Below, one piece after another: positions 1 to 45,855 of a stretch of 45,855 bases of DNA (position 1 is the stretch's first letter; each line of letters opens with the position of its first letter). Location: the IMG/VR virus record IMGVR_UViG_2531839662_000038. One strand, written 5' to 3'. The notes under the pieces are model-generated. The model saw only the letters and a list, made by a program, of their open reading frames with translations. It did no database searches and was not told the origin of the DNA. The position numbers and the translations under genes were made by a program. The stretch comes from a virus (Duplodnaviria; Heunggongvirae; Uroviricota; Caudoviricetes).

Positions 1-1284
1 TTACTTCTTCGCCTCTGCAACCACTTTACTACCCACGCCGCGGTTATTGTATTCCCACATGCGGTTGTAGTTAGTGTCATTCAGATTGCGCTGTATTTCG
101 TCGTTATCATCTACGCTGCCGGTATTACCCGCAAACGGACGATTAGAGATCACCGCATCGGCCCACGGTTTAGCCGTGTTAAAACCTTCGTTGATGGCGC
201 TATCACGGATCACCACCTGACCGTTGGTATTGGCATCAACATCCAGCGAGCGGCCCAGTTGCGCCACACCATCACCGAAAGCATTGAAACGGCTGTTTAC
301 GGCGAGGAAACCGTAGTAAATGTTGGACAGCGTAGCCGGTGCAAACACATACGCTTCTTGCTGAGTACGTGAGTTCACCACGCGGAATTCGGTGTTATCG
401 AACACCACTGCGCCGCGACCAGAAACGATATCCACATCCCCTTCAATGTAGCTGTTGGTCACCAGCGTACGCGGCTGACGATTTGTTTCCAGACGGTTCT
501 GCACACCGCTGTTGGTGACAAAGAAGGTGTTCTGACGACCGAGAATGTTAACGTTGTTAATCTGTACCTGGTCACCATCAGTACGCAGTGCCACCGCCGG
601 ATGGTTACCTGCATCTACGCTATCGCCCAGCGTGTTTTCGATGGTCAGATTTTGCAGTTGCAGGCCATTGTTTTGTGACCAGAAGACCGCAGAGCAGAGA
701 ACACCGATACTGTCGCTGCGTTTGCTCTGGCAGCTATCGTACATATACCACGCTGGTTTACCTGGCATATATTTGCCGCGCGGGTTGACGTCGTGACGCC
801 AGTCGGCAGGGCTCATGCCACCATCAAGGGAAAGCCCAATCTTCACATCAATCGGTTTTTCACCTGTACCGTACAGAGTAATTCCACCCGGAGCGGCAGG
901 GACATATACCGTTCCCTGATACTCACCAGGCATCACGGCAATATACTGGCGCTTGTTGGTACGCTTGATAATTGCCGCATCTACCGCCGCCTGAATCGTG
1001 GTATGCGTTACACCTTGAGTGCCCGCCGGGCCGACAACAAAGTCAGGTTGCGCAGGCAGGGTAATCGGGGAAGGATTCCACGCTGCAGCACCTGGTGTCA
1101 GGGATGCAAAATAGTGTTGAGCATCGAAATTCTGCGCTTCTTTTGCCGACAGAATCGGGCGAGAAGAGGTACCAGGCGCGGTTTGATCAGAAGGACGTTG
1201 ATCGGGCGGGGTTGAGCTACAGGCGGTCAGCGTCACGCCAAAAGCCAATGCCAGCGCCAGACGGGAAACTGAAAATGTGTTCAC
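1..1284 (-). CDS. ybhC: YbhC, outer-membrane lipoprotein (pectinesterase-like / acyl-CoA thioesterase family); host gene on the gal side of the lambda attachment site
   Basis: Full 427-aa ORF with N-terminal lipoprotein signal (LTACSS); recognised as E. coli YbhC; sits immediately left of the lambda att core. Confidence 0.9.
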   Translation of the reverse strand: MNTFSVSRLALALAFGVTLTACSSTPPDQRPSDQTAPGTSSRPILSAKEAQNFDAQHYFASLTPGAAAWNPSPITLPAQPDFVVGPAGTQGVTHTTIQAAVDAAIIKRTNKRQYIAVMPGEYQGTVYVPAAPGGITLYGTGEKPIDVKIGLSLDGGMSPADWRHDVNPRGKYMPGKPAWYMYDSCQSKRSDSIGVLCSAVFWSQNNGLQLQNLTIENTLGDSVDAGNHPAVALRTDGDQVQINNVNILGRQNTFFVTNSGVQNRLETNRQPRTLVTNSYIEGDVDIVSGRGAVVFDNTEFRVVNSRTQQEAYVFAPATLSNIYYGFLAVNSRFNAFGDGVAQLGRSLDVDANTNGQVVIRDSAINEGFNTAKPWADAVISNRPFAGNTGSVDDNDEIQRNLNDTNYNRMWEYNNRGVGSKVVAEAKK

Positions 1285-1299
1285 AGGTTGCTCCGGGCT

Positions 1300-1420
1300 A
1301 TGAAATAGAAAAATGAATCCGTTGAAGCCTGCTTTTTTATACTAAGTTGGCATTATAAAAAAGCATTGCTTATCAATTTGTTGCAACGAACAGGTCACTA
1401 TCAGTCAAAATAAAATCATT
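1300..1420. other. attL: Lambda-type attL (core GCTTTTTTATACTAA at 1331..1345 plus P' arm running to the int stop)
   Basis: Sequence 1331..1440 matches the remembered lambda attP core and P' arm; directly abuts int 3' end. Confidence 0.9.
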
Positions 1421-2489
1421 ATTTGATTTCAATTTTGTCCCACTCCCTGCCTCTGTCATCACGATACTGTGATGCCATGGTGTCCGACTTATGCCCGAGA
1501 AGATGTTGAGCAAACTTATCGCTTATCTGCTTCTCATAGAGTCTTGCAGACAAACTGCGCAACTCGTGAAAGGTAGGCGGATCCCCTTCGAAGGAAAGAC
1601 CTGATGCTTTTCGTGCGCGCATAAAATACCTTGATACTGTGCCGGATGAAAGCGGTTCGCGACGAGTAGATGCAATTATGGTTTCTCCGCCAAGAATCTC
1701 TTTGCATTTATCAAGTGTTTCCTTCATTGATATTCCGAGAGCATCAACATGCAATGCTGTTGGGATGGCAATTTTTACGCCTGTTTTGCTTTGCTCGACA
1801 TAAAGATATCCATCTACGATATCAGACCACTTCATTTCGCATAAATCACCAACTCGTTGCCCGGTAACAACAGCCAGTTCCATTGCAAGTCTGAGCCAAC
1901 ATGGTGATGATTCTGCTGCTTGATAAATTTTCAGGTATTCGTCAGCCGTAAGTCTTGATCTCCTTACCTCTGATTTTGCTGCGCGAGTGGCAGCGACAGG
2001 GTTTGTTGTTATATGGCCTTCAGCTATTGCCTCTCGGAATGCATCGCTCAGTGTTGATCTGATTAACTTGGCTGACGCCGCCTTGCCCTCGTCTATGTAT
2101 CCATTGAGCATTGCCGCAATTTCTTTTGTGGTGATGTCTTCAAGTGGAGCATCAGGCAGACCCCTCCTTATTGCTTTAATTTTGCTCATGTAATTTATGA
2201 GTGTCTTCTGCTTGATTCCTCTGCTGGCCAGGATTTTTTCGTAGCGATCAAGCCATGAATGTAACGTAACGGAATTATCACTGTTGATTCTCGCTGTCAG
2301 AGGCTTGTGTTTGTGTCCTGAAAATAACTCAATGTTGGCCTGTATAGCTTCAGTGATTGCGATTCGCCTGTCTCGGCCTAATCCAAACTCTTTACCCGTC
2401 CTTGGGTCCCTGTAGCAGTAATATCCATTGTTTCTTATATAAAGGTTAGGGGGTAAATCCCGGCGCTCATGACTTCGCCTTCTTCCCAT
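1419..2489 (-). CDS. int: Tyrosine integrase, lambda Int type
   Basis: 356-aa ORF starting MGRRRSHERRDLPPNLYIRNNGYYCYRDPRTGKEF, recognised as lambda Int; transcribed toward attL. Confidence 0.97.
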   Translation of the reverse strand: MGRRRSHERRDLPPNLYIRNNGYYCYRDPRTGKEFGLGRDRRIAITEAIQANIELFSGHKHKPLTARINSDNSVTLHSWLDRYEKILASRGIKQKTLINYMSKIKAIRRGLPDAPLEDITTKEIAAMLNGYIDEGKAASAKLIRSTLSDAFREAIAEGHITTNPVAATRAAKSEVRRSRLTADEYLKIYQAAESSPCWLRLAMELAVVTGQRVGDLCEMKWSDIVDGYLYVEQSKTGVKIAIPTALHVDALGISMKETLDKCKEILGGETIIASTRREPLSSGTVSRYFMRARKASGLSFEGDPPTFHELRSLSARLYEKQISDKFAQHLLGHKSDTMASQYRDDRGREWDKIEIK

Positions 2490-7466: not shown

Positions 7467-8006
7467 ATGAGTAACTGGTGGCAGGAACTATTACGTTTCT
7501 TCCTGCGTGGTCTTACGCTACAACAGTTAATTCATATGCTTATTATTTTAATTGCCTTGATAATAATCACCCCTGCATCAATTAAAGAGTGGGTAGATAT
7601 AAGGAACCCAGAAATACTTCCAGATCACTGGATGTATTACGCAATGCTTTTGTGTATCAGTTATGTTCTGAACAGGGTGATGGAGTTTATATTTCTGGCA
7701 TCTTCAGACAGATATAAAAAATATCTCAGTAAGAGAGATGAGGCTAAAGTAATTGTGGAGACTGAGCGCCTGTTCAATTCTCTGAGTATTCAGGAAAAAG
7801 AGGTTTTAGCATTTGCTGTTATGGCAAATAACAAAATCGTACTTAAGCACGGCGATCCGGTCGCTTTATCTCTTATGAGAAAAGGCCTTCTCCATCGCTC
7901 AGGTGTGACTTACAGCGCGTCAGGTAAAGAGAAATTTGTTATACCTGACGTCTGGTTCCATGAGTGTTATATGCGCTTTGCTGGTAAAGCTGATGAGCTA
8001 ATTTAG
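7467..8006 (+). CDS. sieB: Superinfection exclusion protein B-like membrane protein
   Basis: 179-aa ORF with two predicted transmembrane helices; located between cIII and N on the opposite strand, as sieB is in lambda/P22; good Shine-Dalgarno context. Confidence 0.5.
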   Translation: MSNWWQELLRFFLRGLTLQQLIHMLIILIALIIITPASIKEWVDIRNPEILPDHWMYYAMLLCISYVLNRVMEFIFLASSDRYKKYLSKRDEAKVIVETERLFNSLSIQEKEVLAFAVMANNKIVLKHGDPVALSLMRKGLLHRSGVTYSASGKEKFVIPDVWFHECYMRFAGKADELI

Positions 8007-8027: not shown

Positions 8028-8300
8028 TCACCTCGCCGTCAGTTGTTTTGATTTCCGGTAGCCTGCCGCGTAAATAGCTACGTTCGGAAGACAAGTTGAA
8101 CCTTCATATTTTCTGGTCAACGTTGTCAGTGTTATTACTTCTGCTCTCATTGCTGGTTTGCGCTTGCATTGCAAGACCACTCGTGAGGGGGTTGGCCTGT
8201 GTAGCTTGTCGGAGCTAATCGACTCCTGACTTTGCAGATTTGCGCGACGAGCTCTACGGCGAGAAGCTGCGGTGCCTTTAAATTCTGTTTTTCTGGACAT
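8028..8300 (-). CDS. N: N-type antitermination protein (P22 gene 24 / phage 21 N family)
   Basis: 90 aa from MSRKTEFKGTAASRRRARRANLQ (arginine-rich motif); C-terminus VAIYAAGYRKSKQLTAR matches remembered P22 gp24 end; GGAGG Shine-Dalgarno before ATG at 8300. Confidence 0.75.
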   Translation of the reverse strand: MSRKTEFKGTAASRRRARRANLQSQESISSDKLHRPTPSRVVLQCKRKPAMRAEVITLTTLTRKYEGSTCLPNVAIYAAGYRKSKQLTAR

Positions 8301-8325
8301 AGATTCCTCCCGAATAAACTCTGGC

Positions 8326-8373
8326 GATGCAATCCCGAAGCTACTCCTGAGAGGGTTGCTTCGGCATTGCATC
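8326..8373 (-). promoter_or_regulatory. Long hairpin in the N leader (RNase III processing site-like)
   Basis: 16-bp inverted repeat with one mismatch (GATGCAATCCCGAAGC / GCTTCGGCATTGCATC) between nutL and the N start. Confidence 0.5.
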
Positions 8374-8479: not shown

Positions 8480-8540
8480 CTGATGAGTTAACTTTATCGA
8501 AATGATAAATTAATGGCAATAGCAAAATGATAAATTGTTT
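8480..8540. promoter_or_regulatory. OL/pL operator-promoter region
   Basis: Palindrome TTTATCGAAATGATAAA (8493..8509) and second ATGATAAAT site (8527..8535); same half-site family as in OR. Confidence 0.5.
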
Positions 8541-8711
8541 TAGTTTTCAAATATCCTGTTGATTATTATGGTTTTTTATTTGATTGCAGGAATTTATCAG
8601 AAGGAATAAAGAGACTTGAGGGGGATCAGAATTGCGCGTTTTAGTGAGTTGTATCTGTTTATTTTTCAACAAATACAATCGATTATGTGTTTTTAGGTGG
8701 GCGAACGTTGG

Positions 8712-8740
8712 GCAAAGAAAACCCGGCACTGAGGCCGGGT
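8712..8740 (-). terminator. Intrinsic terminator ending the cI-linked leftward operon
   Basis: Plus-strand AAAGAAAA then CCCGGC-ACTGAG-GCCGGG, i.e. GC hairpin plus U-run on the minus strand, 5 nt after the ORF-B stop. Confidence 0.6.
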
Positions 8741-8745
8741 GTGTA

Positions 8746-9429
8746 TTAGGGGGTTGAGACTCCAGAGAGCAATCCGTAGATTTTATATACAGCAAATGCT
8801 AATGCTGGCAAGCCAAGGGCCCATTTGATTATATCAAGCTTAACATCACTAAGCTTACCTTCTAACTTTGCCTCTTGAACAGAAAGAGCTGCATCGATCT
8901 TTTTTGATTGGGAGTCAAGGGCACTCTCAATTCTACTCGATTGTATGTCCAGACGACTGTTGATTTGTTCGTGCTGAGTAACAACTAAATGCTTCATCTC
9001 CTTTATATCTGAAGCCATTAGTTCACGCCATTTGGCCATATCAGCCTGCATTTTTGAGGCCACTGCATCCACTTCAGCTTTATTTGCCTTCAGAAGTGCC
9101 TGTATTTCGTTTCTGCTCAAATCGGACATTGCGGTTCCCTGTATAGGAGTTTCCTCGTACGGTGGGATAACATTAGATTGTCCTTTACAATCGGCAACCC
9201 CTCCTTTATCTACGATTGTAGCAGTTAGCTGGGAATTGGTCGCATCATCCACCATGTTTTTTGGTGAATAAGAGGAAATAGGCGTAGAAAACAGATTACC
9301 TTTTGCTGTTTCCATGAACATCATGAAATCGCGAGTATTAACGTTATTCAGGGAAACTTGCAGTGGTTTAACAATACTTGATGTTTTGTAAGTAATAGTT
9401 AAATCACCTACTTCTTCCGGTTGTTGCAT
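8746..9429 (-). CDS. Unrecognised coiled-coil protein with C-terminal hydrophobic helix (ORF-B of the cI-linked cassette)
   Basis: 227-aa ORF; extended heptad-like region (EIQALLKANKAEVDAVASKMQADMAKWRELM...) and C-terminal WALGLPALAFAVYKIYGLL; start overlaps ORF-A stop (TAATG). Confidence 0.6.
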   Translation of the reverse strand: MQQPEEVGDLTITYKTSSIVKPLQVSLNNVNTRDFMMFMETAKGNLFSTPISSYSPKNMVDDATNSQLTATIVDKGGVADCKGQSNVIPPYEETPIQGTAMSDLSRNEIQALLKANKAEVDAVASKMQADMAKWRELMASDIKEMKHLVVTQHEQINSRLDIQSSRIESALDSQSKKIDAALSVQEAKLEGKLSDVKLDIIKWALGLPALAFAVYKIYGLLSGVSTP

Positions 9430-9749
9430 TACGACTTCGCTCCATTAGAGTTTTGTGCCTCTAATTGTTCGAAAAGAAGAACTATATTCTCCTGAAGAGC
9501 CTTTAGTTGTGCCATTGGCATTATCACAGTGCATTGCTGATTGAGTTCATTTACAGAGCCTATCTGCATATTCGCTCTACCTGGTTGATCTGGTATATCA
9601 TTTTGGGATAGTACCGCAGGTATTGACTTGTTTGCGATAAAATGTATACAAATGAGATTTTTTTCCGCTCCCGGTAGTGGAGCAAAACTAGCGAAGTCCG
9701 CATAGGTTTCAATATAATCCACAGATGGTTTAATTTTGACCGGTTCCAT
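9429..9749 (-). CDS. Unrecognised small protein (ORF-A of the cI-linked cassette)
   Basis: ORF track gives 9429..9764 with a TTG start; ATG at 9749 (MEPVKIKP...) has a GAGAGG Shine-Dalgarno and is the likelier start; AT-rich codon usage. Confidence 0.55.
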   Translation of the reverse strand: MEPVKIKPSVDYIETYADFASFAPLPGAEKNLICIHFIANKSIPAVLSQNDIPDQPGRANMQIGSVNELNQQCTVIMPMAQLKALQENIVLLFEQLEAQNSNGAKS

Positions 9750-9872
9750 AACGCCTCTCATCAAATATTGTAGGTTTTTTAATTCAATGTGTTAAATGTT
9801 GGTGGTGTGTTATTTAAAGTTATTTTGACATCCTCCACGCCCTGAAGGACGGGGCTTGTCACGTACTTGAAG

Positions 9873-10577
9873 TCACAAACTTTTCAGCCACTCCCTTGCC
9901 TCGATGTCATCCAGATGACGAGATTGCTTCAGAATACCAGCCACATACTCCACCTTTGCTACTTGATGATAAGGTAACGTTATTGGCCTGTGGTCCTGGT
10001 TGATGCTTGTAAATTGGTATTCTCCATCTCTGTCATAGCCAAGAATCTTGATCATGTTGTGTCCTTCAACGGTTCTGACAAACACCTCATCCCCCGGGAA
10101 TACTTTGGTGTTAGGCTCAATGAGTACATATTCTCCTGATTTTATTCTGGGCCACATGCTGTCTCCTTTCACACGAAGACCAAAGGCATCTGGATCATCA
10201 CTATAAATCTTGAGCCACCCATCGCGCTCTTCGGTCATCTCGATGGCACCATCAACACCAAGAATTGCCTCACCAACCACGCGCACTAACCCTTTTCTTA
10301 CCTGACCGACAAAAGTTAAAGAATCTGAGCATGATGCAATTGGTGTTACATCATGTACCAAATCAAGCCACCCATTAGGTAACCCAAGTGCGGCTTCGAA
10401 TTTTCTTGCTAGTTTATCCCCTATGTTTCGAGTGCTTTTTTCACCGGAGACTTGCGTGAGTTGAGAAGGGCTAACTCCAAGCTTATCGGCAAAGCTTGCA
10501 TTAGTGTTACCCGCGATTTTTTTATGCTCATCTAGCAAAAACGCCAGATTCGATTTGCGAATATCTTTGTTTTCCAT
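9873..10577 (-). CDS. cI: CI-type prophage repressor (N-terminal HTH, C-terminal LexA-like S24 autopeptidase)
   Basis: 234-aa ORF; HTH region FADKLGVSPSQLTQVSG; S24 motifs GDSM and a downstream Lys; divergent from the cro-like gene across an operator region. Confidence 0.8.
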   Translation of the reverse strand: MENKDIRKSNLAFLLDEHKKIAGNTNASFADKLGVSPSQLTQVSGEKSTRNIGDKLARKFEAALGLPNGWLDLVHDVTPIASCSDSLTFVGQVRKGLVRVVGEAILGVDGAIEMTEERDGWLKIYSDDPDAFGLRVKGDSMWPRIKSGEYVLIEPNTKVFPGDEVFVRTVEGHNMIKILGYDRDGEYQFTSINQDHRPITLPYHQVAKVEYVAGILKQSRHLDDIEAREWLKSL

Positions 10578-10599
10578 CCCACGATTCTCCCTCTATTTA

Positions 10600-10690
10600 G
10601 TAAATGGATAAATACGCATTTTGATAAATCTCCATTGCAGTTTATTTATCAAGATGGTAAAGTTGCTCTGTGTGATAAACGGAGGCACTA
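10600..10690. promoter_or_regulatory. OR/pR/pRM operator-promoter region
   Basis: Repeated GATAAAT / ATTTATC half-sites at 10607..10613, 10621..10629, 10644..10652 and 10672..10679 between divergent cI and cro-like genes. Confidence 0.55.
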
Positions 10691-11062: not shown

Positions 11063-11362
11063 ATGGAACAAACAAGTTACAGCAAACTATCACAGCGCGA
11101 CGTTGATCGCGCAGAAACAGATTTACTCATCAACCTGTCAACGCTTACCCAGCGCGGTCTGGCAAAGATGATTGGCTGTCATGAATCGAAGATAAGCAGA
11201 ACGGACTGGAGATTTATTGCTTCGGTCCTGTGTGCTTTTGGAATGGCATCAGACATCAGTCCGATTAGCAGGGCTTTTAAGTATGCGCTTGATGGACTCA
11301 CCAATAAAAAACGCCCGGTGTGCAAGATCGAGCGTTCTGATCAAATACAAATGGAATTTTAA
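11063..11362 (+). CDS. cII: CII transcriptional activator
   Basis: C-terminus LTNKKRPVCKIERSDQIQMEF matches the remembered lambda CII end (...NKKRPAATERSEQIQMEF); HTH-like central region. Confidence 0.8.
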   Translation: MEQTSYSKLSQRDVDRAETDLLINLSTLTQRGLAKMIGCHESKISRTDWRFIASVLCAFGMASDISPISRAFKYALDGLTNKKRPVCKIERSDQIQMEF

Positions 11363-11659: not shown

Positions 11660-12607
11660 ATGAGCAATACAGCAAAAATCTACGATTTCAGCGCCGCACA
11701 CGAGCGCAGGAGCAACAGGATGGAGAACCAGAAAACTGGTTACATTCCGTTGTACCGGAGCATTCTGAAACAGTCATGGGCGAAAGATGTTTATCTTCGC
11801 ACCCTGTGGGAAAACCTTCTCCTGAATGCCGCCAGAAAGCCACACAAAGCGAATTTCAAAGGTCATGAATGGCATCTGCAACCCGGTCAACTGGTTGTGA
11901 CAGCAGCTGATTTAGGTCTTCAGTTATGCGACAGGCATGGCAAGCCGGCAAGCCGTGATCAGGTTGAGCGGATGCTTCAGGTTTTTGTGAAAGAGGGGAT
12001 GATCACCATTGATGGAGAGAAGCAAAAAGGTCGTGTGATCACCATCACGAATTACCATGAATATGCTCAAAAAATGGACAATTCACCCGCACATGAAGCC
12101 GCACAAACAACCGCACATGACGCCGCACATGACGAAGCCAGTAATGGCGCGGCTTTCAGCGTACATGCCGCACATGAAAGCGCACATGAAGCCGCACAAA
12201 CAACCGCACATCATGAACAAGAAGGTATTAACAAGAATATAAATAATACCCCCCTACCCCCCAATGGGGGAGGCGATGGGCAGGTTAAACCTGAACGTCG
12301 CAAGGCAGAACGAATCGACTATGAATCCTTCCTGAATGCCTACAACACCGAAGTCGGTGACAGACTGCCACACGCTGTTGCGGTCAACGAGAAACGCAAA
12401 CGTCGCCTGAAGAAAATCATTCCGCAACTGAAAACGCCAAACGTGGACGGTTTCAGAGCGTATGTCAGGGCGTTTGTGCATCAGGCCAAGCCGTTTTACT
12501 TCGGAGACAACGACACGGGCTGGACGGCAGATTTTGATTACCTGCTGAGGGAAGATTCGTTAACGGGAGTACGGGAAGGGAAGTTTGCAGACAGGGGGAT
12601 TGCATGA
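11660..12607 (+). CDS. O: Replication initiator, O-like (P22 gene 18-like), containing the iteron origin
   Basis: 315-aa ORF starting [10 protein letters not shown] (compare lambda O MTNTAKI...); internal iteron array followed by an AT-rich tract. Confidence 0.65.
12085..12250. repeat. Origin iterons: repeated CCGCACATGA / GCCGCACAAACAA units followed by an AT-rich tract
   Basis: At least six CGCACATGA copies between 12087 and 12213, including two near-identical 29-bp units; AT-rich 12215..12250. Confidence 0.7.
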
Positions 12608-34196: not shown

Positions 34197-36319
34197 TGAA
34201 AGTAACTGCAAACGGTAAGACATTTACCTTCCCTGATGGTACGAGCACGGAAGATATTGGCACCGCCATTGATGAGTATTTTGCTGGTCAGGCTGTTCAG
34301 CAACAAACAGTTAATCAGGCCAATAATGCACCAACACGGGAAGAACCATCATTAATGCAACAAGCTGGCGATTGGCTCACTGGTGGTCAAAGTGCAGGGC
34401 AAATTGCAGAACAGGCTGGTCGTGGTCTGGTAAACATACCATTTGACGTATTGCAGGGTGGCGCAAGTCTGATTAATGCAATCAGTCAGGGGCTTGGTGG
34501 GCCAAAAGTATTGGATGATGTCTATCGTCCAGTCGATCGACCGACAGACCCTTATGCGCAAGCTGGAGAAACAATTGGCGGGTATCTCCTGCCAATTGGC
34601 ACAGCGGCAAAAGTTGCTGGAGCGCCAGCAAAGCTCGCAGGAGACATCGGTTCCGCAGGAAACATGATTGCAGGTTCTCTTGCTGATGCTGCAAATCAGG
34701 AGGGTGATTTTGCACAAAATGCTGCCATTAACGGTGGTATCAATATTGGTGCTCAAGGCGTTCTTTCAGGTGTCGGGCGCGTTATTGCGCCAAGGGTTTC
34801 ACAGGCTCTTGGTGGTGCAGCACTGAATTCTGCTAATGAAGTTTCTAGGATGGCAAAGTCAGGTGCTGGGCGTCAGTCAATTGCCAGTCAGGCCGCTAAT
34901 GTGTCCGAAGATGTAGCAAAAGCGGCTGAGTCTGCTGGAATTGATATAAACGCATTAACACCAGGAATGCGATCTGGAAGTCGTGGAATTGCACAAGCCG
35001 AAGGCGCATTGGCATCAACACCTGGAATTGTTCAGGACGCCCATCAGGCAGCATTTAACGAAATATCATCAAAGTTAAGTCGAAACCTTGATGAATTTGG
35101 GGCCACATCTGGAACGGCATCAGAAAAAAGTGCGGCTATAAAACAAAGGATTCTTCAAAATCTTGATCAGATGAAGGATGCCGAGCGCGCGGCATGGGAT
35201 GACGTGCGGTCAACAATGCCAAATCAAAAAGCAAGAATGCTAAATGGTAATGCCGTTATTCAGGCAGAGCGATCTGCTGGCATACCGCTTACTCCTGAAA
35301 TGAAACAGTTTGTTCAGGCAAACAATCAAGGTGGAGTAACATTTGATGGCATGAAAGCATGGAGAGCGAAATTTGCTGATGCGGAGCAAAAATATAAGCG
35401 TAGCGGAGAGGCAAATGCGGCAAGGAGAGCAGGGGAAATACGCCGGGCAATTACTGATGATATGCGCACAATGGCGGAAAACGGCGGATTTCTTGATGAC
35501 TGGCAGAAAGCTAATGATCTGTCTAAAGCGAGGTTATCAGCACAAGAGAGTGCAGAGTCTGTTTTCGGGCGTGATTTGGCAACAGATGCACTGATTACGA
35601 ATGGAGTAAAATCCCTTCAATCATCGTCAGCTAAAGGTCTTAATGGTCCTGCTGGATTCCATTCTATGATCCGCGCGCTGCCAGAATCAGAGCGTGTTCC
35701 TGCTATATCATCAATGTTGCAAGATGCTATCTCGCATGGTGTACGTGGTGGCAAAGCTGATGCAGCAGGAATTAACCATATCGCAGAGATACTGACTCCA
35801 CAAAATGTAAAAGCCATTAGCCGATATTCCTCAGAGCTTGGAAGAATTGCTGATGCATATGGCACTCTTGCAAGAGCAGCAGTGAAACCTCAGCAGTATA
35901 TTGAAAGAACAGGTAGAACTGCCAATGTACTACGCGATCTGGATGCTGGTTTATCCAACGTCACATCAACAGTGTTAAATGCAATTGCCAATTCAACATC
36001 AGGTGCCATTGTTGGTGGCGCTGGAGGAGGCATTGCAGGCGCTGCCGCAGGTGCTTTAGTTGGCGCTGGGTTAAAAGGCGCTGTATCTAAAATTGCCACC
36101 ACACGTAGTGGTCGGTATGCGATAGAGAAAGCGGTTCAGGAAGCAACTAAAGCAGTAAGAGCAGGCGGAAGCAAAGAAGCATTAGCGGCGGCGGAACGCA
36201 GATTTATGGCAAATAAGGCCGCCGTAAAAGCAATACGCGAGGCACTAGGAAACGAAGAGTTCCAGCGTTTAGCAAGGGCTGGAATTGTGGCATCGCTAAG
36301 CGGAATGGCACAGGAGTAA
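34193..36319 (+). CDS. Ejection protein (P22 gene 16 type)
   Basis: 708-aa ORF; position; Gly/Ala-rich repeats. Confidence 0.75.
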
Positions 36320-40392: not shown

Positions 40393-42387
40393 ATGACAGA
40401 CATTACAGCCAATGTGATCGTATCGATGCCTTCGCAACTTTTCACTATGGCGCGTTCTTTTAAAGCGGTTGCCAATGGCAAAATTTATATCGGTAAAATT
40501 GACACTGACCCGGTGAATCCTGAAAACCAGATTCAGGTTTATGTGGAAAACGAAGACGGTTCTCACGTTCCTGTTTCGCAACCAATCATCATTAACGCTG
40601 CTGGTTATCCTGTATATAACGGACAGATTGCCAAATTCGTAACTGTGCAAGGCCATTCTATGGCTGTTTATGATGCGTACGGTGCGCAGCAGTTCTATTT
40701 TCCTAACGTCCTGAAGTATGACCCTGACCAATTAAGGCAAGAATTAGCTTCTGACAGAGGAGCAACATTATCATTAAGTCAGATAGCTACTTCTTACGGC
40801 CTTGATTTCTCGTTAGGCGGTGTATGGCGGGAGGGGGCGTTATCTAATGTTGATAACTGGTGGTGGTATAATAATAAAATCTACACCGGTGGTAGCGGCA
40901 CTCTTCCGTCATCTCCTGCTTTGCCATGGTACGAAGTGACGGTAGCAGATTATATTTCTGTTGCTCAATTTTTCCCCATTACTGGTGATCCAGCGGCAGA
41001 TAACTCAGCTAGCTTTAATGCTGCTGCAGCAGTTGCTTTATCGGCAGGAAAGAGGCTGTTTGTCCCTGCAGGAACTTACTATGTTAAGTCACCAGTTGAT
41101 TTAACAATAGGCACTGTTGACCTATTCGGGGATGGCGTTGAGAAGTCATTCATTATTGCGGGGAGTGGGTTCACTGGAGAGACAGTTGTCAACATGTACT
41201 ACGAAACTGACTCTATAAGACGTAGCACATCTATCTCTCACGTTACAGTTGATGGGAACAACATCGCCAACTATGCTTGCCGAATTCAATATGTTCACCT
41301 AGGAAGAACCCATAATTGTCGTTTCATCAATGGCGTGGTGGCGAACTTCTATACTATAAACGACTGGCTTAATACCTATGATTGCTGTTCTTTTGTTCCT
41401 GCGCCAAATCGCGGAGTTCACCTTGCTGGGGCTAACAACCGCGTAACGTTCAATAACTGTGGATTTGCATCAAATAAGGTCGGTGAATATGCCTTTTATG
41501 CTTCTGGTACTTCCCCTATTGAAGGTTTAAGCTTAATTGGATGTGACCTTGAGTTCGGCATTGGGCATGGCATGTACTTAAATACCCGAGTGACCAATAT
41601 TGTTGGCGGGTACTATGGCGAAGCGATACAAGGCGATATCTTTACGGTTCCAGATGGAGTAGTAAAAATAAGCGGTGTAAATGCTTTTGTAGGATATTAC
41701 AATGAGGGAGGAAGGTTTGTTGTTCTTGACAATGATGCTGTAGTTAAGGTTGATAGTTGCTGGATTGCAGATCAGGGCAACTTTAAACTTTCATTACTTG
41801 CATCAAGCACTGACAACAGGGCTCATGCTGTATTTACTAATTGTTATATTGGTGCAACTGTGTCTGGCCCACAAGTTATGGAAGGAGATTGTTTAGGCAA
41901 GATTAATATGAGGACGTTTGCAGAAAGCAGAGCAATCCTTTATACAATGAACAATACTGGTAATACAGTAACCAGAAGCAGATACAACTCAATAGGAGCA
42001 AAAATAACCATTAATACCGTAACGACCCCTAGTTCTAACAAGCTATCACTTAATACTAAGATAAAAGACAGAGGGTGGAAGGTTAACGACCGGGTATACT
42101 TAATTGTTACTTATGAGAGTAATGTTGATATAAATATTTATTTAAGCAGTTCGATATATGCTGCATCGGATGCAACGCTATTTGGAACTTTACCATCAAC
42201 AAATGGTTCTTTATCTACGTGTTATATTGCTAATAATATTATTCCGGAAAATACATCTGAGATATTCGAGTTTTATGTAAATGGCGCTGGTGTTGGCGAT
42301 TACTTTGCTATTCAGGATGTTACTCTTACAGACAGGTCATTCACTTTCAGTGGAACAACTATGACCACTTTTGCTAAGGCTGAATAA
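40393..42387 (+). CDS. Tailspike: P22-type N-terminal head-binding domain fused to a divergent receptor-binding domain
   Basis: 664-aa ORF; first ~115 aa ([59 protein letters not shown]...) match remembered P22 gp9 N-terminus; remainder unrelated to P22. Confidence 0.85.
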
Positions 42388-42392
42388 TTAAC

Positions 42393-42420
42393 AGAAAAGG
42401 TGGATCACTCCACCTTTTCA
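42393..42420. terminator. Bidirectional hairpin terminator between convergent tailspike and integrase genes
   Basis: AAGGTGGA-TCAC-TCCACCTT flanked by A-run and T-run; the integrase stop codon lies in the loop. Confidence 0.65.
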
Positions 42421-43562
42421 TCAAGCCAGTCCGCCCACCACTGCATCATTTCTCTGCGCTTATCGAGATACTGAGCATGGTTGTAAATCCCACGCACAGA
42501 TCCGCCGTTGGCATGTGCCAGTTGCACTTCAATAGCATCAGCAGGCCATTCGTGCTCGTTCGTAATCGTGCTGAATTCATGCCTGAATCCGTGACCGCTT
42601 TCCAGACCTTCATAGCCGATTTGTTTGATCACAAGCAGTACAGCGTTCTCGCAAATTGGCTTCTTCTTATCGTTGCGCCCGGCAAAAACAAACTCTGATA
42701 CTGGTTTGGTGATTGAGCTTAGCGTAGTGAGAAGTTCAACCACCTGGTCTGACATAGGAACCACATGAATTTTGCGTCCCTTCATCACACTGGCGTCGAT
42801 GGTGATAATCCTGTTTTCAAAATCGACGTTCTTCCATAGCATGGAACGAAGCTCTTTCGTTCTTAGGGCTGTGTAGCGTAAAACTTTGGTCGCAATGAGC
42901 GATACGATGCTTCCTGAAAATGTTGCCAGTGCTTTGTTGAATGCCGGGATCTGGTCTGCAGGAAGAAACGGGAAGTTCTTCTTGCGGTATCCCTTCATGG
43001 CGTCAGCAAGGTCAGGTGCCGGGTTATATTTAGCCCTGCCGGTGACAATAGCGTAACGGAAAACCTCGCCGCATCTTCTGCGTGCTTTGTTGGCTCGCTC
43101 CATTGCACCGCGATCTTCAAATCTGCGGATTACTTCCAGCAGTTGCATCGGCTCAATATCCTGAATCTCAAGACCGCCGATGATGGGTAAAATGTCGTCA
43201 TCAAACATTTTTGCAAGTTCAGTCGCATACCCTACTGACCAGACTTGCTTCTTGTGTTCGTACCATTCCTTGTAAATTGCACTAAAGGAATTGTTGTTAG
43301 ACGAAGCCTTTTTCGCTTTTACCGGATCGATGCCAACCGAGATGTCTTTCCTCGCAGTCCATGCTTTATCCCTTGCCTCCTGCAAAGTCATAAGCGGATA
43401 TTTTCCTACGGTCAGGATTTTCTCCTTACCGTCAATCTTGTAGCGAAGCTGCCATACCTTTTTCCCTGACACAGGGACATAAAGGTACAGGCCATTACCA
43501 TCGAGTAGGCGGTATGGTTTTTCTTTCGGCTTTGCTGCTTCAATCTGCTTAACGGTGAGCAT
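42405..43562 (-). CDS. intS: Tyrosine integrase, P4/IntS type with N-terminal arm-binding domain
   Basis: 385 aa from MLTVKQIEAAKPKEKPYRLLDGNGLYLYV (the ORF track extends to a GTG at 43598); catalytic region with HGFRH and a C-terminal Tyr; lies about 160 bp from argW. Confidence 0.85.
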   Translation of the reverse strand: MLTVKQIEAAKPKEKPYRLLDGNGLYLYVPVSGKKVWQLRYKIDGKEKILTVGKYPLMTLQEARDKAWTARKDISVGIDPVKAKKASSNNNSFSAIYKEWYEHKKQVWSVGYATELAKMFDDDILPIIGGLEIQDIEPMQLLEVIRRFEDRGAMERANKARRRCGEVFRYAIVTGRAKYNPAPDLADAMKGYRKKNFPFLPADQIPAFNKALATFSGSIVSLIATKVLRYTALRTKELRSMLWKNVDFENRIITIDASVMKGRKIHVVPMSDQVVELLTTLSSITKPVSEFVFAGRNDKKKPICENAVLLVIKQIGYEGLESGHGFRHEFSTITNEHEWPADAIEVQLAHANGGSVRGIYNHAQYLDKRREMMQWWADWLDEKVE

Positions 43563-43723
43563 GGGTAAAAATCCGGTGGGTAAAATTATTTTATCCACTT
43601 TTTACCCGTCATGGAGTGCGGCTGTCAACGATCTGACGCGAACCATTACGAACTGTGAATCTACGGAAGGCTTGATATTCAGGGGATTTTGCGGACTGGT
43701 ACGGATGGGAGCGAACTGATAAA

Positions 43724-43798
43724 TGGTGTCCCCTGCAGGAATCGAACCTGCAATTAGCCCTTAGGAGGGGCTCGTTATATCCATTTAACTAAGAGGAC
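43724..43798 (-). tRNA. argW: tRNA-Arg (anticodon CCU), argW
   Basis: 75-nt sequence on the minus strand: GTCCTCTTAGTTAAATGGATATAACGAGCCCCTCCTAAGGGCTAATTGCAGGTTCGATTCCTGCAGGGGACACCA, cloverleaf-compatible, anticodon loop CUCCUAA. Confidence 0.9.
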
Positions 43799-43873
43799 AA
43801 TGCGGCATGAGTATACCCGCTAATGGAGTGCGGGGTAAGTACGCTGCCGCTCGATTGCTTAAACCCTCGCCAT

Positions 43874-44806
43874 TTATGCCGGGTTTTTATAATTTTTCTT
43901 AATGTTTTCCGCACGTTCTGCTTTTTGGCGTGCTTCTGCTTTACGCTTATTGCTCATGTCGTTACGAATCTGTGCATGACTCATTAACGCGAAGATAAAG
44001 GTGCCGCCGCAGATGTTCCCCGCTAAAGTAGGTAGTGCGAAGGGCCAGATGAAATCGCTCCAGTGCAGCGTACCGTTAAACACCAGATAGAGGATTTCAA
44101 CAGAACCGACCACGATATGGGTGGTGTCACCCAGGGCAATAAGCCAGGTCATCAATATAATCACCACAATCTTTGCCGCACCCGCTGCAGGAAACATCCA
44201 AACCATAGTGGCGATCAGCCAGCCGGAAATGATCGCGTTGGCAAACATCTCGCTGGGGGTGTTCTTCATCACATCCATGCCGATTTTGACAAATGCATCG
44301 CGAGTTTCTTCATTGAAGATAGGCATATATTCAAATGCCCACGCCGCAATACCTGTCCCGAGAATATTACCCAGCAGCACGACGCCCCATAACCGTATAA
44401 GTAAGCCGACGTTGCTCATTGTCGGTTTTTGCATGACGGGTAGTACCGCAGTCACGGTATTTTCGGTAAATAATTGCTGGCGGGCCATAATGACGATAAT
44501 AAAACCAAAGGTATAACCGAGATTCTCCAGCAAGAAGCTGCCCGGCACACCTTCCAGTTCGACTTGAAATATCCCTTTTGCCAGTAACGAAGCGCCCATC
44601 GACAGACCCGCCGCAATGGCTGACCACAGTAGCGCCATTGCGTCGCGTTCCAGCTCTTTTTCACCATCCTGGCGGATATGCTCATGAATTGCCATCGCCC
44701 GGGAGGGGAGTCGGTCTTCATCTATTTCTATTTTTTTGCCGCGCTCTTTTTCTTCGCTCTCAACTTCAATTTCGTCGCTGTGTTGATCAATTTTGTCGTT
44801 GTCCAT
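43874..44806 (-). CDS. yfdC: Inner membrane protein YfdC (formate/nitrite transporter family)
   Basis: 310-aa polytopic membrane ORF recognised as E. coli YfdC, the known neighbour of argW. Confidence 0.85.
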   Translation of the reverse strand: MDNDKIDQHSDEIEVESEEKERGKKIEIDEDRLPSRAMAIHEHIRQDGEKELERDAMALLWSAIAAGLSMGASLLAKGIFQVELEGVPGSFLLENLGYTFGFIIVIMARQQLFTENTVTAVLPVMQKPTMSNVGLLIRLWGVVLLGNILGTGIAAWAFEYMPIFNEETRDAFVKIGMDVMKNTPSEMFANAIISGWLIATMVWMFPAAGAAKIVVIILMTWLIALGDTTHIVVGSVEILYLVFNGTLHWSDFIWPFALPTLAGNICGGTFIFALMSHAQIRNDMSNKRKAEARQKAERAENIKKNYKNPA

Positions 44807-45099
44807 GGTCTCTTCTCTTGAATTAGCACGTATAGCTAAAGCGTAGCGGCTTTTTTGCTCGCAACTGACGGGAGTTACTCTGAAAATGTAGAAAAGGCTG
44901 CGTTTGCCTTTTTCTGTTTCTATAGAATCAAGTAGCCTACAGGGCGGCGATTACCAGGCTATGATCAAATCAGCAAATCAGGGCGTCTGGACATCAGTTG
45001 ACGTGCTGTTACAATCGCCCACACCTAAACAGGCGGATACGGTATCGTTCCGTCATGGATGGCAAACTGCATAAGCCATAAAAAAACAGGGAGACATTT

Positions 45100-45855
45100 A
45101 TGAAGCTTCGCCTGTCGGCGCTTGCTCTGGGAACTACGCTTCTGGTGGGGTGTGCGAGTTCCGGTACAGATCAGCAAGGGCGTTCTGACCCGTTAGAAGG
45201 GTTCAACCGCACCATGTACAACTTCAACTTCAATGTATTAGACCCGTATATTGTTCGACCGGTCGCTGTCGCCTGGCGTGATTATGTTCCGCAACCGGCG
45301 CGTAACGGTTTGAGCAACTTTACTGGCAACCTTGAAGAACCTGCGGTGATGGTTAACTACTTCTTGCAGGGCGACCCTTATCAGGGGATGGTCCACTTTA
45401 CCCGCTTTTTCCTGAACACCATTTTGGGGATGGGCGGTTTTATTGATGTTGCAGGGATGGCGAACCCGAAACTGCAACGGACTGAGCCTCACCGCTTCGG
45501 TAGTACGCTTGGTCATTATGGCGTGGGTTATGGGCCTTACGTTCAGTTACCGTTCTACGGTAGCTTCACGCTGCGTGATGACGGTGGTGATATGGCGGAT
45601 GGTCTTTACCCGGTTCTTTCCTGGCTGACCTGGCCGATGTCTGTGGGTAAATGGACGCTTGAAGGGATCGAAACCCGCGCTCAGCTGCTGGATTCCGATG
45701 GTCTGCTGCGTCAGTCGTCCGATCCTTATATTATGGTGCGCGAAGCGTACTTCCAGCGTCATGATTTCATCGCTAATGGCGGCGAACTCAAACCGCAGGA
45801 AAATCCGAACGCACAAGCGATTCAGGATGATTTAAAAGATATTGATTCTGAATAA
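45100..45855 (+). CDS. mlaA: MlaA (VacJ) outer-membrane lipoprotein
   Basis: 251-aa ORF with lipoprotein signal (LLVGCASS); recognised as E. coli MlaA. Confidence 0.9.
   Translation: MKLRLSALALGTTLLVGCASSGTDQQGRSDPLEGFNRTMYNFNFNVLDPYIVRPVAVAWRDYVPQPARNGLSNFTGNLEEPAVMVNYFLQGDPYQGMVHFTRFFLNTILGMGGFIDVAGMANPKLQRTEPHRFGSTLGHYGVGYGPYVQLPFYGSFTLRDDGGDMADGLYPVLSWLTWPMSVGKWTLEGIETRAQLLDSDGLLRQSSDPYIMVREAYFQRHDFIANGGELKPQENPNAQAIQDDLKDIDSE

What the first reader, a model, noticed from the sequence alone, without database searches (positions are those of the whole stretch)
8712..9872. Unrecognised two-gene cassette co-oriented with cI in the rexAB position
Two translationally coupled minus-strand ORFs sit between the repressor gene (9873..10577) and OL/pL (about 8480..8540). 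The stop of ORF-A and start of ORF-B overlap (TAATG), and ORF-B is followed 5 nt later by a GC hairpin plus U-run. The segment is visibly more AT-rich than the neighbouring phage genes, a moron signature. This is the slot where lambda carries rexA-rexB. ORF-B (227 aa) has a long coiled-coil region and a C-terminal hydrophobic helix, suggesting a tail-anchored membrane protein; ORF-A (about 106 aa) looks soluble. I do not recognise either as RexA/RexB or any named defence family, so this is a candidate novel prophage-encoded exclusion or abortive-infection module.
Basis: partly seen in the sequence, partly recalled or inferred. Interest (0 to 1): 0.85.

Follow-up and report, generated by a model that had tools for sequence, protein, structure and literature searches.

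The report
Uncharacterised two-gene cassette replacing rexAB
A lambda-like prophage carries, exactly where phage lambda keeps its rexAB exclusion genes, an unstudied gene pair (a small soluble protein plus a membrane-anchored coiled-coil protein) that is probably a new anti-phage or lysogen-protecting module, although no function has been tested.

Summary
Two coupled minus-strand genes, ORF-A (9429-9749, 106 aa) and ORF-B (8746-9429, 227 aa), lie between an S24 cI repressor and OL/pL. They end at a strong terminator.

Alignments show the segment (about 8742-9865) is a precise cargo swap. Lambda (rexAB), Stx phage ST2-8624 (HigBAC-type defence, 99% identical cI) and HK542 join the same invariant terminator hairpin with different cargo.

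ORF-B is not family-less. It is a divergent DUF1640/CCDC90-like protein with a small head, a disordered linker, a beta-layer-capped 11-residue-repeat coiled coil and a highly conserved C-terminal membrane helix. ORF-A is a tiny orphan family (17 representatives in 1.84 billion proteins) with a weakly COMM-domain-like fold.

In about 29 loci from six enterobacterial genera, ORF-B relatives almost always sit directly downstream of a repressor. Exactly one abutting partner gene is present, drawn from at least four unrelated families, while the stalk and membrane helix stay constant.

No known defence family matches, and no paper describes the pair.

Best reading (about 0.5): a lysogen-expressed exclusion or abortive-infection module with a variable sensor and a constant membrane effector. 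Function is inferred from context only.

The parts
9873..10577 (-). cI-type repressor (HTH + Peptidase_S24), H-19B immunity type. It is the upstream gene of the presumed operon.
   Evidence: Pfam PF00717 E 4e-16. It is 232/233 identical to the cI of Stx phage ST2-8624.
9767..9795 (-). Sigma-70 promoter-like site (TTAACA-17-TACAAT, 10/12) in the 123-nt cI/ORF-A spacer. It is a possible cassette-internal promoter, analogous in position to lambda pLIT.
   Evidence: only a consensus match (4 sites found against 5.5 expected in the region). Its -10 box overlaps the alternative TTG start, which favours the ATG at 9749.
9429..9749 (-). ORF-A, 106 aa, acidic (pI 4.75) and soluble. It has three beta-strands (19-24, 32-51, 59-78) plus a C-terminal helix (79-101). 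It is the variable partner, proposed as sensor or regulator.
9292..9411 (-). ORF-B head (aa 7-46): a beta-hairpin plus helix. It is present only in relatives paired with ORF-A-family partners.
   Evidence: E7-14, E23-31, H32-46; pLDDT 71-86.
9133..9288 (-). ORF-B disordered, poorly conserved linker (aa 48-99).
   Evidence: pLDDT below 50 for aa 48-99; mean majority frequency 0.24.
8833..9129 (-). ORF-B stalk (aa 101-199). It holds the beta-layer-like cap DLSRNE, the nearly invariant motif ANKAEVDAVAS..M..MAKWRE, and four 11-residue repeats (aa 156-199).
   Evidence: invariant columns; Fourier peaks at 2.75, 2.2 and 3.65, equal to 11/4, 11/5 and 11/3; motif definition; single helix 103-222, pLDDT 91-95.
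8764..8832 (-). ORF-B C-terminal hydrophobic helix (aa 200-222, IIKWALGLPALAFAVYKIYGLLS), followed by a 5-residue tail. It is a predicted N-in tail anchor.
   Evidence: Kyte-Doolittle 19-residue maximum of 1.49 at aa 196-214. This is the most conserved region of the family (0.86). Relatives (HK542, Providencia) have a clearer TM helix plus a Pro/Gln-rich tail.
8711..8740 (-). Intrinsic terminator, the homologue of the lambda terminator downstream of rexB. It is the backbone-side joint of the cargo swap.
   Evidence: The hairpin is invariant in the window, ST2-8624, lambda and HK542, and homology ends 0-3 nt beyond it.
8624..8710 (.). Conserved backbone segment between the terminator and OL, shared with lambda, HK97 and Stx phages. 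It is not part of the cargo.
   Evidence: 85.5% identical to lambda 35712-35825; about 220 phage records.
8491..8566 (-). OL operators (8493-8510, 8518-8535, about 8550-8566) and a pL-like promoter (8519..8491).
   Evidence: annotated OL1-3 of ST2-8624 map onto these positions.

Best explanation
The segment is a lysogeny-expressed accessory operon. It occupies the variable locus downstream of cI, the rexAB slot, of a lambdoid prophage with H-19B-type immunity.

Shown here:
- It is a discrete cargo of about 1.1 kb, inserted between the cI stop codon and the conserved terminator that also closes rexB in lambda.
- No terminator lies between cI and ORF-A. Read-through from pRM is therefore expected, and a promoter-like site also lies in front of ORF-A.
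- ORF-B is a DUF1640/CCDC90-like protein with no signal peptide. It has a small head, a flexible linker, a long coiled-coil stalk built on 11-residue repeats, and a very conserved C-terminal hydrophobic helix.
- ORF-A is a small acidic protein with a beta-sheet-plus-helix fold, of the kind used for obligate oligomerisation.

Inferred:
- ORF-B is a cytoplasm-facing, tail-anchored inner-membrane oligomer, probably a trimer by analogy with DUF1640.
- ORF-A binds the ORF-B head. Both have a hairpin-plus-helix, and the head exists only when the partner is of the ORF-A family.
- The fast-evolving, interchangeable partner plus head set specificity by sensing a component of an incoming phage.
- The invariant stalk and membrane helix execute the response at the inner membrane, by depolarisation, leakage, or blocking of a host membrane complex. 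The outcome is exclusion or abortive infection of heterologous phages while cI keeps the prophage silent.

This matches the logic of RexA/RexB (cytoplasmic sensor, membrane effector), but with unrelated proteins.
For: Slot identity and precise swap:
- Window 8624-8740 is 85.5% identical to lambda 35712-35825, which covers the rexB 3' end and the terminator region.
- The hairpin AAAACCCGGC(R)CTGAGGCCGGGT is invariant in four phages with four different cargoes.
- Homology with ST2-8624 ends about 8 nt past the cI stop.

The slot holds validated defence systems:
- ST2-8624 has a 99% identical cI. There the slot encodes HigB, a HigA-like protein and a third protein that hit PADLOC PD-Lambda-2_A (2.5e-42), PD-Lambda-2_B (3.8e-50) and PD-T4-9_C (3.2e-11).

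Conserved context:
- ORF-B relatives lie directly downstream of a repressor in 9 of 10 assembly loci and in 18 of 19 IMG/VR loci.
- Exactly one abutting or overlapping partner gene is always present, and a strong terminator follows in every locus examined.

Modularity:
- The partners fall into at least four families: ORF-A; a 143-157 aa family including HK542; a 99-100 aa family; and a 118-aa double-CxxC family.
- Conservation along ORF-B (majority-residue frequency) is head 0.39, linker 0.24, cap motif 0.80 and membrane helix 0.86.

Independent mobility:
- A 100% identical ORF-B is linked to cI alleles that are only 71% identical.
- The cI partners vary in type and length across genera, and one copy sits beside tail-fibre genes.

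Structure. The beta-layer motif comes from PMC4786415.
Against: - No experiment bears on function, and no transcript data exist.
- No PADLOC model matches either protein or any variant.
- Eukaryotic DUF1640 members (MCUR1, CCDC90B) are membrane scaffolds, not killers (titles and abstracts).
- The hydrophobic helix is borderline by Kyte-Doolittle (1.49) and contains a lysine.
- The ORF-A/ORF-B-head interaction could not be modelled, and hhalign finds no homology between them.
- The promoter match is no better than chance density.
- Location in a defence hotspot is circumstantial. Such slots also carry non-defence morons.
Confidence: 0.5

Rival explanations
1. The pair is a lysogenic-conversion membrane scaffold. 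ORF-B, like its mitochondrial relatives MCUR1/CCDC90B, binds and modulates a host inner-membrane complex such as a transporter, channel, respiratory complex or protease. ORF-A acts as an adaptor. The effect is on host physiology or fitness rather than on incoming phages.
For: - DUF1640/CCDC90-like relationship.
- The family's characterised members are scaffolds.
- The extreme conservation of the stalk motif and membrane helix suggests a conserved binding partner.
- The cassette also occurs at a tail-fibre moron site.
Against: - A fixed host target does not explain why the partner gene and head are swapped among at least four unrelated families.
- The slot's other characterised cargoes are defence systems.
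Confidence: 0.2
2. The pair tunes the prophage's own lysis-lysogeny switch or induction, as RexA has been reported to do for lambda. It could, for example, sequester or stabilise a regulator at the membrane.
For: - It is co-oriented with cI and probably co-transcribed with it.
- RexA is reported to bias the lambda switch independently of RexB (abstract of PMC11077077).
- The gene pair is always adjacent to a repressor gene.
Against: - The identical cassette is linked to cI alleles only 71% identical, and to many repressor types including a non-S24 one. A specific repressor interaction is therefore unlikely.
- ORF-A is acidic and has no DNA-binding signature.
- One copy lies far from any repressor.
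Confidence: 0.12
3. The pair is an addiction (toxin-antitoxin-like) module that stabilises the prophage. ORF-B is a membrane toxin and ORF-A its labile neutraliser, with no role in phage defence.
For: - The small upstream gene is translationally coupled to a membrane protein.
- TA modules occur in this slot.
- A hok/sok module sits at a comparable moron junction in 933W.
Against: - TA modules in this slot turned out to be defence systems.
- There is no similarity to any TA family in Pfam, NCBIfam or PADLOC.
- Partner-family swapping suggests changing specificity rather than simple neutralisation.
Confidence: 0.1
4. The ORFs are decaying or non-functional cargo.
For: No annotation beyond 'hypothetical' or 'DUF1640' exists.
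Against: - Both proteins are conserved in length and sequence across six genera.
- The exact sequences occur on at least 555 and at least 1000 contigs.
- The folds are confident.
- The coupling and the terminator are conserved.
Confidence: 0.03

Closest known systems
Lambda RexA/RexB exclusion system
   Same: - Same genomic slot at nucleotide resolution, between cI and the shared terminator upstream of OL.
- Co-oriented with cI.
- Two genes: a cytoplasmic protein followed by a membrane protein.
- A possible internal promoter.
   Different: - No sequence similarity.
- RexA is 279 aa and, per the abstract listed, a DNA-binding protein, against a 106-aa acidic COMM-like ORF-A.
- RexB is 144 aa and, from general knowledge rather than a test here, has four membrane helices. 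ORF-B has a single C-terminal helix on a long coiled coil.
DUF1640 / CCDC90-like family (PF07798; MCUR1, CCDC90B and prokaryotic members)
   Same: - The architecture is head, stalk and C-terminal membrane helix.
- A beta-layer-type cap (x-aliphatic-[ST]-[RK]-x-[DE]) sits at the start of the stalk.
- All 24 relatives hit the Pfam model, and one is above the gathering score.
   Different: - The window protein itself is below the gathering score (28.1 against 33.5).
- The head is unrelated and separated by a 50-aa disordered linker.
- It is always paired with a small partner gene and is prophage-restricted.
- No function is known for any bacterial member.
HK542/HK244 two-gene cassette (HK542_035 pair; phrog_5893 + phrog_5820)
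   Same: - It is a sister variant of the same system in lambda-immunity phages, in the same slot with the same terminator and overlapping genes.
- The second gene is 30% identical to ORF-B over aa 81-217 (E 1e-11).
   Different: - The first gene (144 aa) belongs to a different family with no similarity to ORF-A.
- The second protein lacks the ORF-B head and has a longer periplasmic Pro/Gln-rich tail.
- It is also uncharacterised.
HigBAC / PD-Lambda-2-type toxin-antitoxin-chaperone systems of lambdoid prophages
   Same: It occupies the identical slot behind a 99% identical cI in Stx phage ST2-8624. It is a validated defence cargo of this hotspot.
   Different: It has three genes: an RNase toxin, an HTH antitoxin and a SecB-like chaperone. 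There is no homology and no membrane component.
COMM domain (COMMD proteins and bacterial COMMD-like proteins)
   Different: - ORF-A has no N-terminal helical domain.

Membership tests
RexAB (lambda) | Located between cI and OL, co-oriented with cI, ending at the shared terminator | tested here: met
   the flanks are homologous and the hairpin is identical.
RexAB (lambda) | Sequence homology to RexA (279 aa) and RexB (144 aa) | tested here: not met
   BLASTP finds no alignment at E <= 100 for either pair. There are no Pfam or PHROG Rex hits.
RexAB (lambda) | Membrane component is a polytopic (four-helix) channel-like protein | tested here: not met
   ORF-B has one hydrophobic segment, at aa 196-222. 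The four-helix RexB topology is from general knowledge.
DUF1640 / CCDC90-like (PF07798) | Pfam model match at or above the gathering score | tested here: inconclusive
   The window ORF-B scores 28.1 bits against 33.5 (E 2e-6). All 24 relatives match with best E 7e-7. Relative L032_B scores 34.7 and passes. L032_B matches the ORF-B query at 32% identity over aa 7-217, tblastn E 1e-32.
DUF1640 / CCDC90-like (PF07798) | Beta-layer motif at the start of the C-terminal stalk | tested here: met
   D-L-S-R-N-E at aa 103-108 fits the pattern exemplified by ELTRAE and MATKDD in PMC4786415. It is conserved as [LFI]-[NST]-[RK]-x-E across the family. This was judged by inspection, not by structure.
DUF1640 / CCDC90-like (PF07798) | Integral membrane protein with a C-terminal transmembrane helix | tested here: inconclusive
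   There is a hydrophobic C-terminal helix, but Kyte-Doolittle gives 1.49, which is borderline. Relatives have clearer helices. No experimental topology exists.
DUF1640 / CCDC90-like (PF07798) | Trimeric coiled-coil stalk | not testable with these tools
   Only a monomer model was possible. The 11-residue periodicity supports a coiled coil but not a particular oligomeric state.
COMM domain | Three-stranded sheet plus C-terminal helix fold | tested here: inconclusive
   [not shown]
COMM domain | Obligate dimer or ring assembly | not testable with these tools
   No multimer prediction was available.
Known anti-phage defence systems (PADLOC-DB 2.0) | Match to any model of a known or candidate defence protein | tested here: not met
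   ORF-A has no hits. ORF-B has only HEC-07 at E 0.009, a coiled-coil noise hit. The variants likewise have no real hits. Databases newer than 2023 were not available.
Type II toxin-antitoxin modules | Homology to a known toxin or antitoxin family | tested here: not met
   Pfam, NCBIfam and PADLOC give no hits.

The most novel reading that the evidence does not exclude
ORF-A/ORF-B is the founding example of a new, modular family of prophage defence systems in Enterobacterales. A constant tail-anchored DUF1640-type coiled-coil effector at the inner membrane is armed by interchangeable small sensor partners from at least four unrelated families, with matching head domains. The cassettes are shuffled as units into the cI-terminator slot. 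This would give the first function to bacterial relatives of mitochondrial MCUR1/CCDC90B.
Probability: 0.4. Interest if true: 0.75.

Novelty: new variant of a known kind. Interest (0 to 1): 0.6.

Why it matters
If the pair protects lysogens, it adds a defence family built from proteins that no current detector recognises. The exact ORF-B sequence occurs on more than 500 E. coli contigs, and the cassette is in 40 of 5,426 complete genomes.

Its constant effector with swappable sensors makes trigger-mapping experiments straightforward.

It would also give a first experimental handle on bacterial DUF1640 proteins, whose mitochondrial relatives are still debated.

Finally, the invariant terminator hairpin shared by four different cargoes marks a precise recombination joint. 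That joint could be used to mine lambdoid prophages systematically for further cargo.

Tried and rejected
- RexA/RexB homology: none.
- PADLOC on the pair and on six variant proteins: nothing real.
- NCBIfam: nothing.
- PDB sequence searches with the family profile and with the stalk alone: nothing.
- Foldseek of ORF-B against the PDB: no hit at E <= 0.001, as expected for a single long helix.
- Foldseek of ORF-A against viral models: only two unnamed small proteins near E 1e-3.
- The afdb50 library was unavailable.
- Homology between ORF-A and the ORF-B head: hhalign probability below 1%.
- ORF-A against the HK542 partner: no similarity.
- RNA element in the cI/ORF-A spacer: the fold is no better than shuffles (z -0.46), and Rfam gives nothing near threshold.
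- Heptad periodicity in the stalk: rejected in favour of an 11-residue repeat.
- An apolipoprotein-like lipid-surface helix was considered because of weak Apolipoprotein hits. It is judged less likely because only about 3 of 11 positions are hydrophobic.
- Literature searches for HK244/HK542, DUF1640 with phage, CCDC90 with prophage, PF07798, and the RefSeq accessions of both proteins found no functional study.
- Degnan et al. 2007, the paper cited for this variable locus, is not held.
- The svsR sRNA of prophage NC-SV lies inside cI and is unrelated.
- Plasmids: only Providencia records carrying an integrated prophage.
Full report
**1. The observation**

The two minus-strand ORFs exist as described. 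ORF-B runs 8746..9429 (227 aa). ORF-A runs 9429..9749 from its ATG (106 aa); an upstream TTG at 9764 would give 111 aa.

The sequence gtcgTAATGcaa shows that the ORF-A stop and the ORF-B start overlap by one base. Five bases after the ORF-B stop lies ACCCGGC-CTCAGT-GCCGGGT followed by TTTCTTTG.

The neighbours are:
- a Peptidase_S24 repressor at 9873..10577;
- N at 8028..8372;
- SieB at 7467..8006;
- CII at 11063..11362.

Operator-like repeats lie at 8493-8535 and at 10598-10662.

The cassette has 41.2% GC against 47.1% for the window. That is the 7th percentile of equal-sized windows, so the AT-richness is real but modest. No terminator-like site lies between cI and ORF-A. A promoter-like TTAACA-17-TACAAT sits at 9795..9767, although such matches are no denser here than in shuffled sequence.

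**2. It is exactly the rexAB slot, and a clean cargo swap**

Window 8624-8740 is 85.5% identical to lambda 35712-35825. That interval runs from the 3' end of rexB towards OL.

The terminator region was aligned across four phages: the window, Stx phage ST2-8624, lambda and HK542. The hairpin AAAACCCGGC(R)CTGAGGCCGGGT is invariant in all four. Similarity ends 0-3 nt beyond it on the cargo side.

On the other side, the window's cI is 232/233 identical to the cI of ST2-8624. DNA homology ends about 8 nt after the cI stop. The exchanged segment is therefore about 8742-9865.

In ST2-8624 the same slot holds three different genes:
- a HigB toxin (Pfam E 4.5e-30);
- an HTH protein;
- a 134-aa protein.

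These hit PADLOC models PD-Lambda-2_A, PD-Lambda-2_B and PD-T4-9_C. A preprint shows that a HigBAC system defends against lambda-vir and siphoviruses. [quoted passage not shown]

The slot is thus a known hotspot. The present cargo is one of its uncharacterised occupants.

**3. ORF-B**

Database matches:
- Pfam gives a sub-threshold CCDC90-like (DUF1640) match: 28.1 bits against 33.5, aa 106-214.
- All 24 aligned relatives hit the same model.
- One longer relative (L032) passes the gathering score at 34.7.
- PHROGs place it in phrog_14825, of unknown function.
- Public records name it only 'hypothetical', 'DUF1640 domain-containing' or 'CCDC90 family protein'.

AlphaFold2 with a 24-sequence alignment gives these regions:
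- a small head (strands 7-14 and 23-31, helix 32-46);
- a disordered stretch, aa 48-99;
- one continuous helix, aa 103-222 (pLDDT 91-95 in its first two-thirds).

The helix starts with D-L-S-R-N-E. This fits the beta-layer cap that Hartmann et al. describe 'prominently at the beginning of the C-terminal stalk' of DUF1640 membrane proteins (PMC4786415).

The family hydrophobicity profile has Fourier peaks at 2.75, 2.2 and 3.65 residues, which equal 11/4, 11/5 and 11/3. This reflects four visible 11-residue repeats at aa 156-199: INSRLDIQSSR, IESALDSQSKK, IDAALSVQEAK and LEGKLSDVKLD. The stalk is therefore a hendecad-based coiled coil.

The C-terminal segment IIKWALGLPALAFAVYKIYGLL is the only hydrophobic stretch (Kyte-Doolittle 1.49, borderline). 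It is also the most conserved part of the protein. Relatives from HK542 and Providencia have unambiguous membrane helices followed by Pro/Gln-rich tails.

With no signal peptide, the likely topology is N-in and tail-anchored. This is an inference.

**4. ORF-A**

There are no Pfam, PHROG, PADLOC or NCBIfam hits.

A word-indexed search found six relatives. A profile search found about 15 full-length clusters. An exhaustive HMMER search of 1.84 billion representatives found only 17, all 85-116 aa apart from two fragments (37 and 72 aa), each matched as a single stretch spanning most of the protein.

The protein is acidic (pI 4.75). Its invariant residues (F37, N40, P44, C73, M77, L82) do not suggest catalysis.

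The long unsupported hairpin and the COMM-like fold suggest an obligate oligomer. The ORF-B head has the same hairpin-plus-helix layout, but there is no detectable sequence homology between them.

**5. Context across genomes**

ORF-B relatives were located in assemblies of Yersinia, Klebsiella, Providencia and metagenomic Enterobacterales and in 19 IMG/VR viral contigs.
- In 9 of 10 assembly loci and 18 of 19 viral loci, the gene lies a few hundred bases downstream of a repressor gene on the same strand.
- Exactly one small gene abuts or overlaps it.
- A strong terminator follows in every locus examined.
- One copy lies beside tail-fibre genes.

The partner falls into at least four families:
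- the ORF-A family (94-127 aa), always paired with an ORF-B that carries the head;
- a 143-157 aa family, including HK542 and HK244 (phrog_5893), paired with head-less ORF-B;
- a 99-100 aa family;
- a 118-aa family with two CxxC pairs (phrog_4293).

By contrast, the cap motif, the 'ANKAEVDAVAS...MAKWRE' stretch and the membrane helix are nearly invariant.

The cassette moves independently of immunity. A 100% identical ORF-B is linked to cI alleles only 71% identical, and to repressors of many lengths and types in other genera.

Abundance:
- The cassette is in 40 of 5,426 complete E. coli genomes.
- It is essentially absent from sequenced phage isolates apart from the HK244/HK542 variant.
- Among plasmids it occurs only in Providencia records that carry a prophage.

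**6. Interpretation**

What is shown:
- a real, conserved, mobile, two-gene cargo in a validated defence hotspot;
- co-orientation with cI with no intervening terminator;
- a constant membrane-anchored coiled-coil protein paired with a rapidly exchanged small partner.

What is inferred: expression in lysogens, an A-B interaction through the head, sensing by the variable part, and a membrane-level response that excludes or aborts heterologous phage infection.

I put this at about 0.5. The rivals are:
- a host-modulating membrane scaffold, 0.2;
- a modulator of the phage's own switch, 0.12;
- a pure addiction module, 0.1;
- junk, 0.03.

Partner-family swapping is the feature that best separates the defence reading from the scaffold and switch readings. 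The total lack of experimental data, and of any match to known defence families, keeps confidence moderate.

**7. Novelty**

The slot and its role as a variable defence locus are known. The HK244/HK542 variant has been deposited since 2007 as hypothetical proteins.

No paper in the searchable library links DUF1640/CCDC90-like proteins to prophage defence, or studies either protein.

I rate it a new variant of a known kind. It is a rex-slot, sensor-plus-membrane-effector cassette built from unrelated and uncharacterised protein families.

Noticed in passing
window 1-2489 and 40393-45855: The window is flanked by ybhC and a lambda-type integrase on the left (the attLambda side). On the right it is flanked by a P22-type tailspike, a second integrase (intS), yfdC and mlaA (the argW side). 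In E. coli UMNF18 these two ends are 2 Mb apart and in opposite orientation. The source genome therefore probably carries a prophage-prophage recombination or large inversion. Only 3 of 5,426 genomes have the tailspike next to intS.
   Followed up: partly
window 9824-9854: A 31-nt stretch in the cI/ORF-A spacer is 100% identical to 44 Stx-phage records. In 933W it lies at 57866-57896, at the 3' end of the tiny ORF L0135, between the huge L0134 gene and a YgiW-like moron near hok/sok. It may be a shared junction or linker sequence at moron boundaries. It forms only a weak hairpin.
   Followed up: partly
window 8624-8720: The roughly 100-nt segment between the terminator and OL is conserved at 81-90% identity in about 220 lambdoid phage records with different immunities and different slot cargo. 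Its role is unknown. It may be the conserved OL-adjacent element I recall from Degnan et al. 2007, a paper not held here.
   Followed up: partly
window 7467-8006 (+): An intact sieB superinfection-exclusion gene (Pfam SieB, E 3e-20; phrog_1301) sits just beyond N, so the prophage carries a second exclusion-type gene close by. In UMNF18 the same gene is disrupted by an ISVsa5 insertion.
   Followed up: no
window 12087-12134 and 12168-12211: Two arrays of a 12-nt repeat (CCGCACATGANN, about 4 copies each) lie inside the replication protein O gene (11660-12607). They encode the His/Ala-rich repeats and probably represent ori iterons.
   Followed up: no
L010 2337-2495; L013 3294-3506: Some relatives of the cassette carry a third small gene between cI and the partner gene. 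One is a 52-aa hydrophobic ORF (L010/L011). The other is a 70-aa DUF2116-like zinc-ribbon ORF (L013/L014).
   Followed up: no
L018 415-1756 (Stx phage ST2-8624 immunity region, GQ499358): The deposited record annotates only cI and the operators. Its rex slot in fact encodes an unannotated HigB / HigA-like / SecB-like trio matching PD-Lambda-2 and PD-T4-9_C models.
   Followed up: yes
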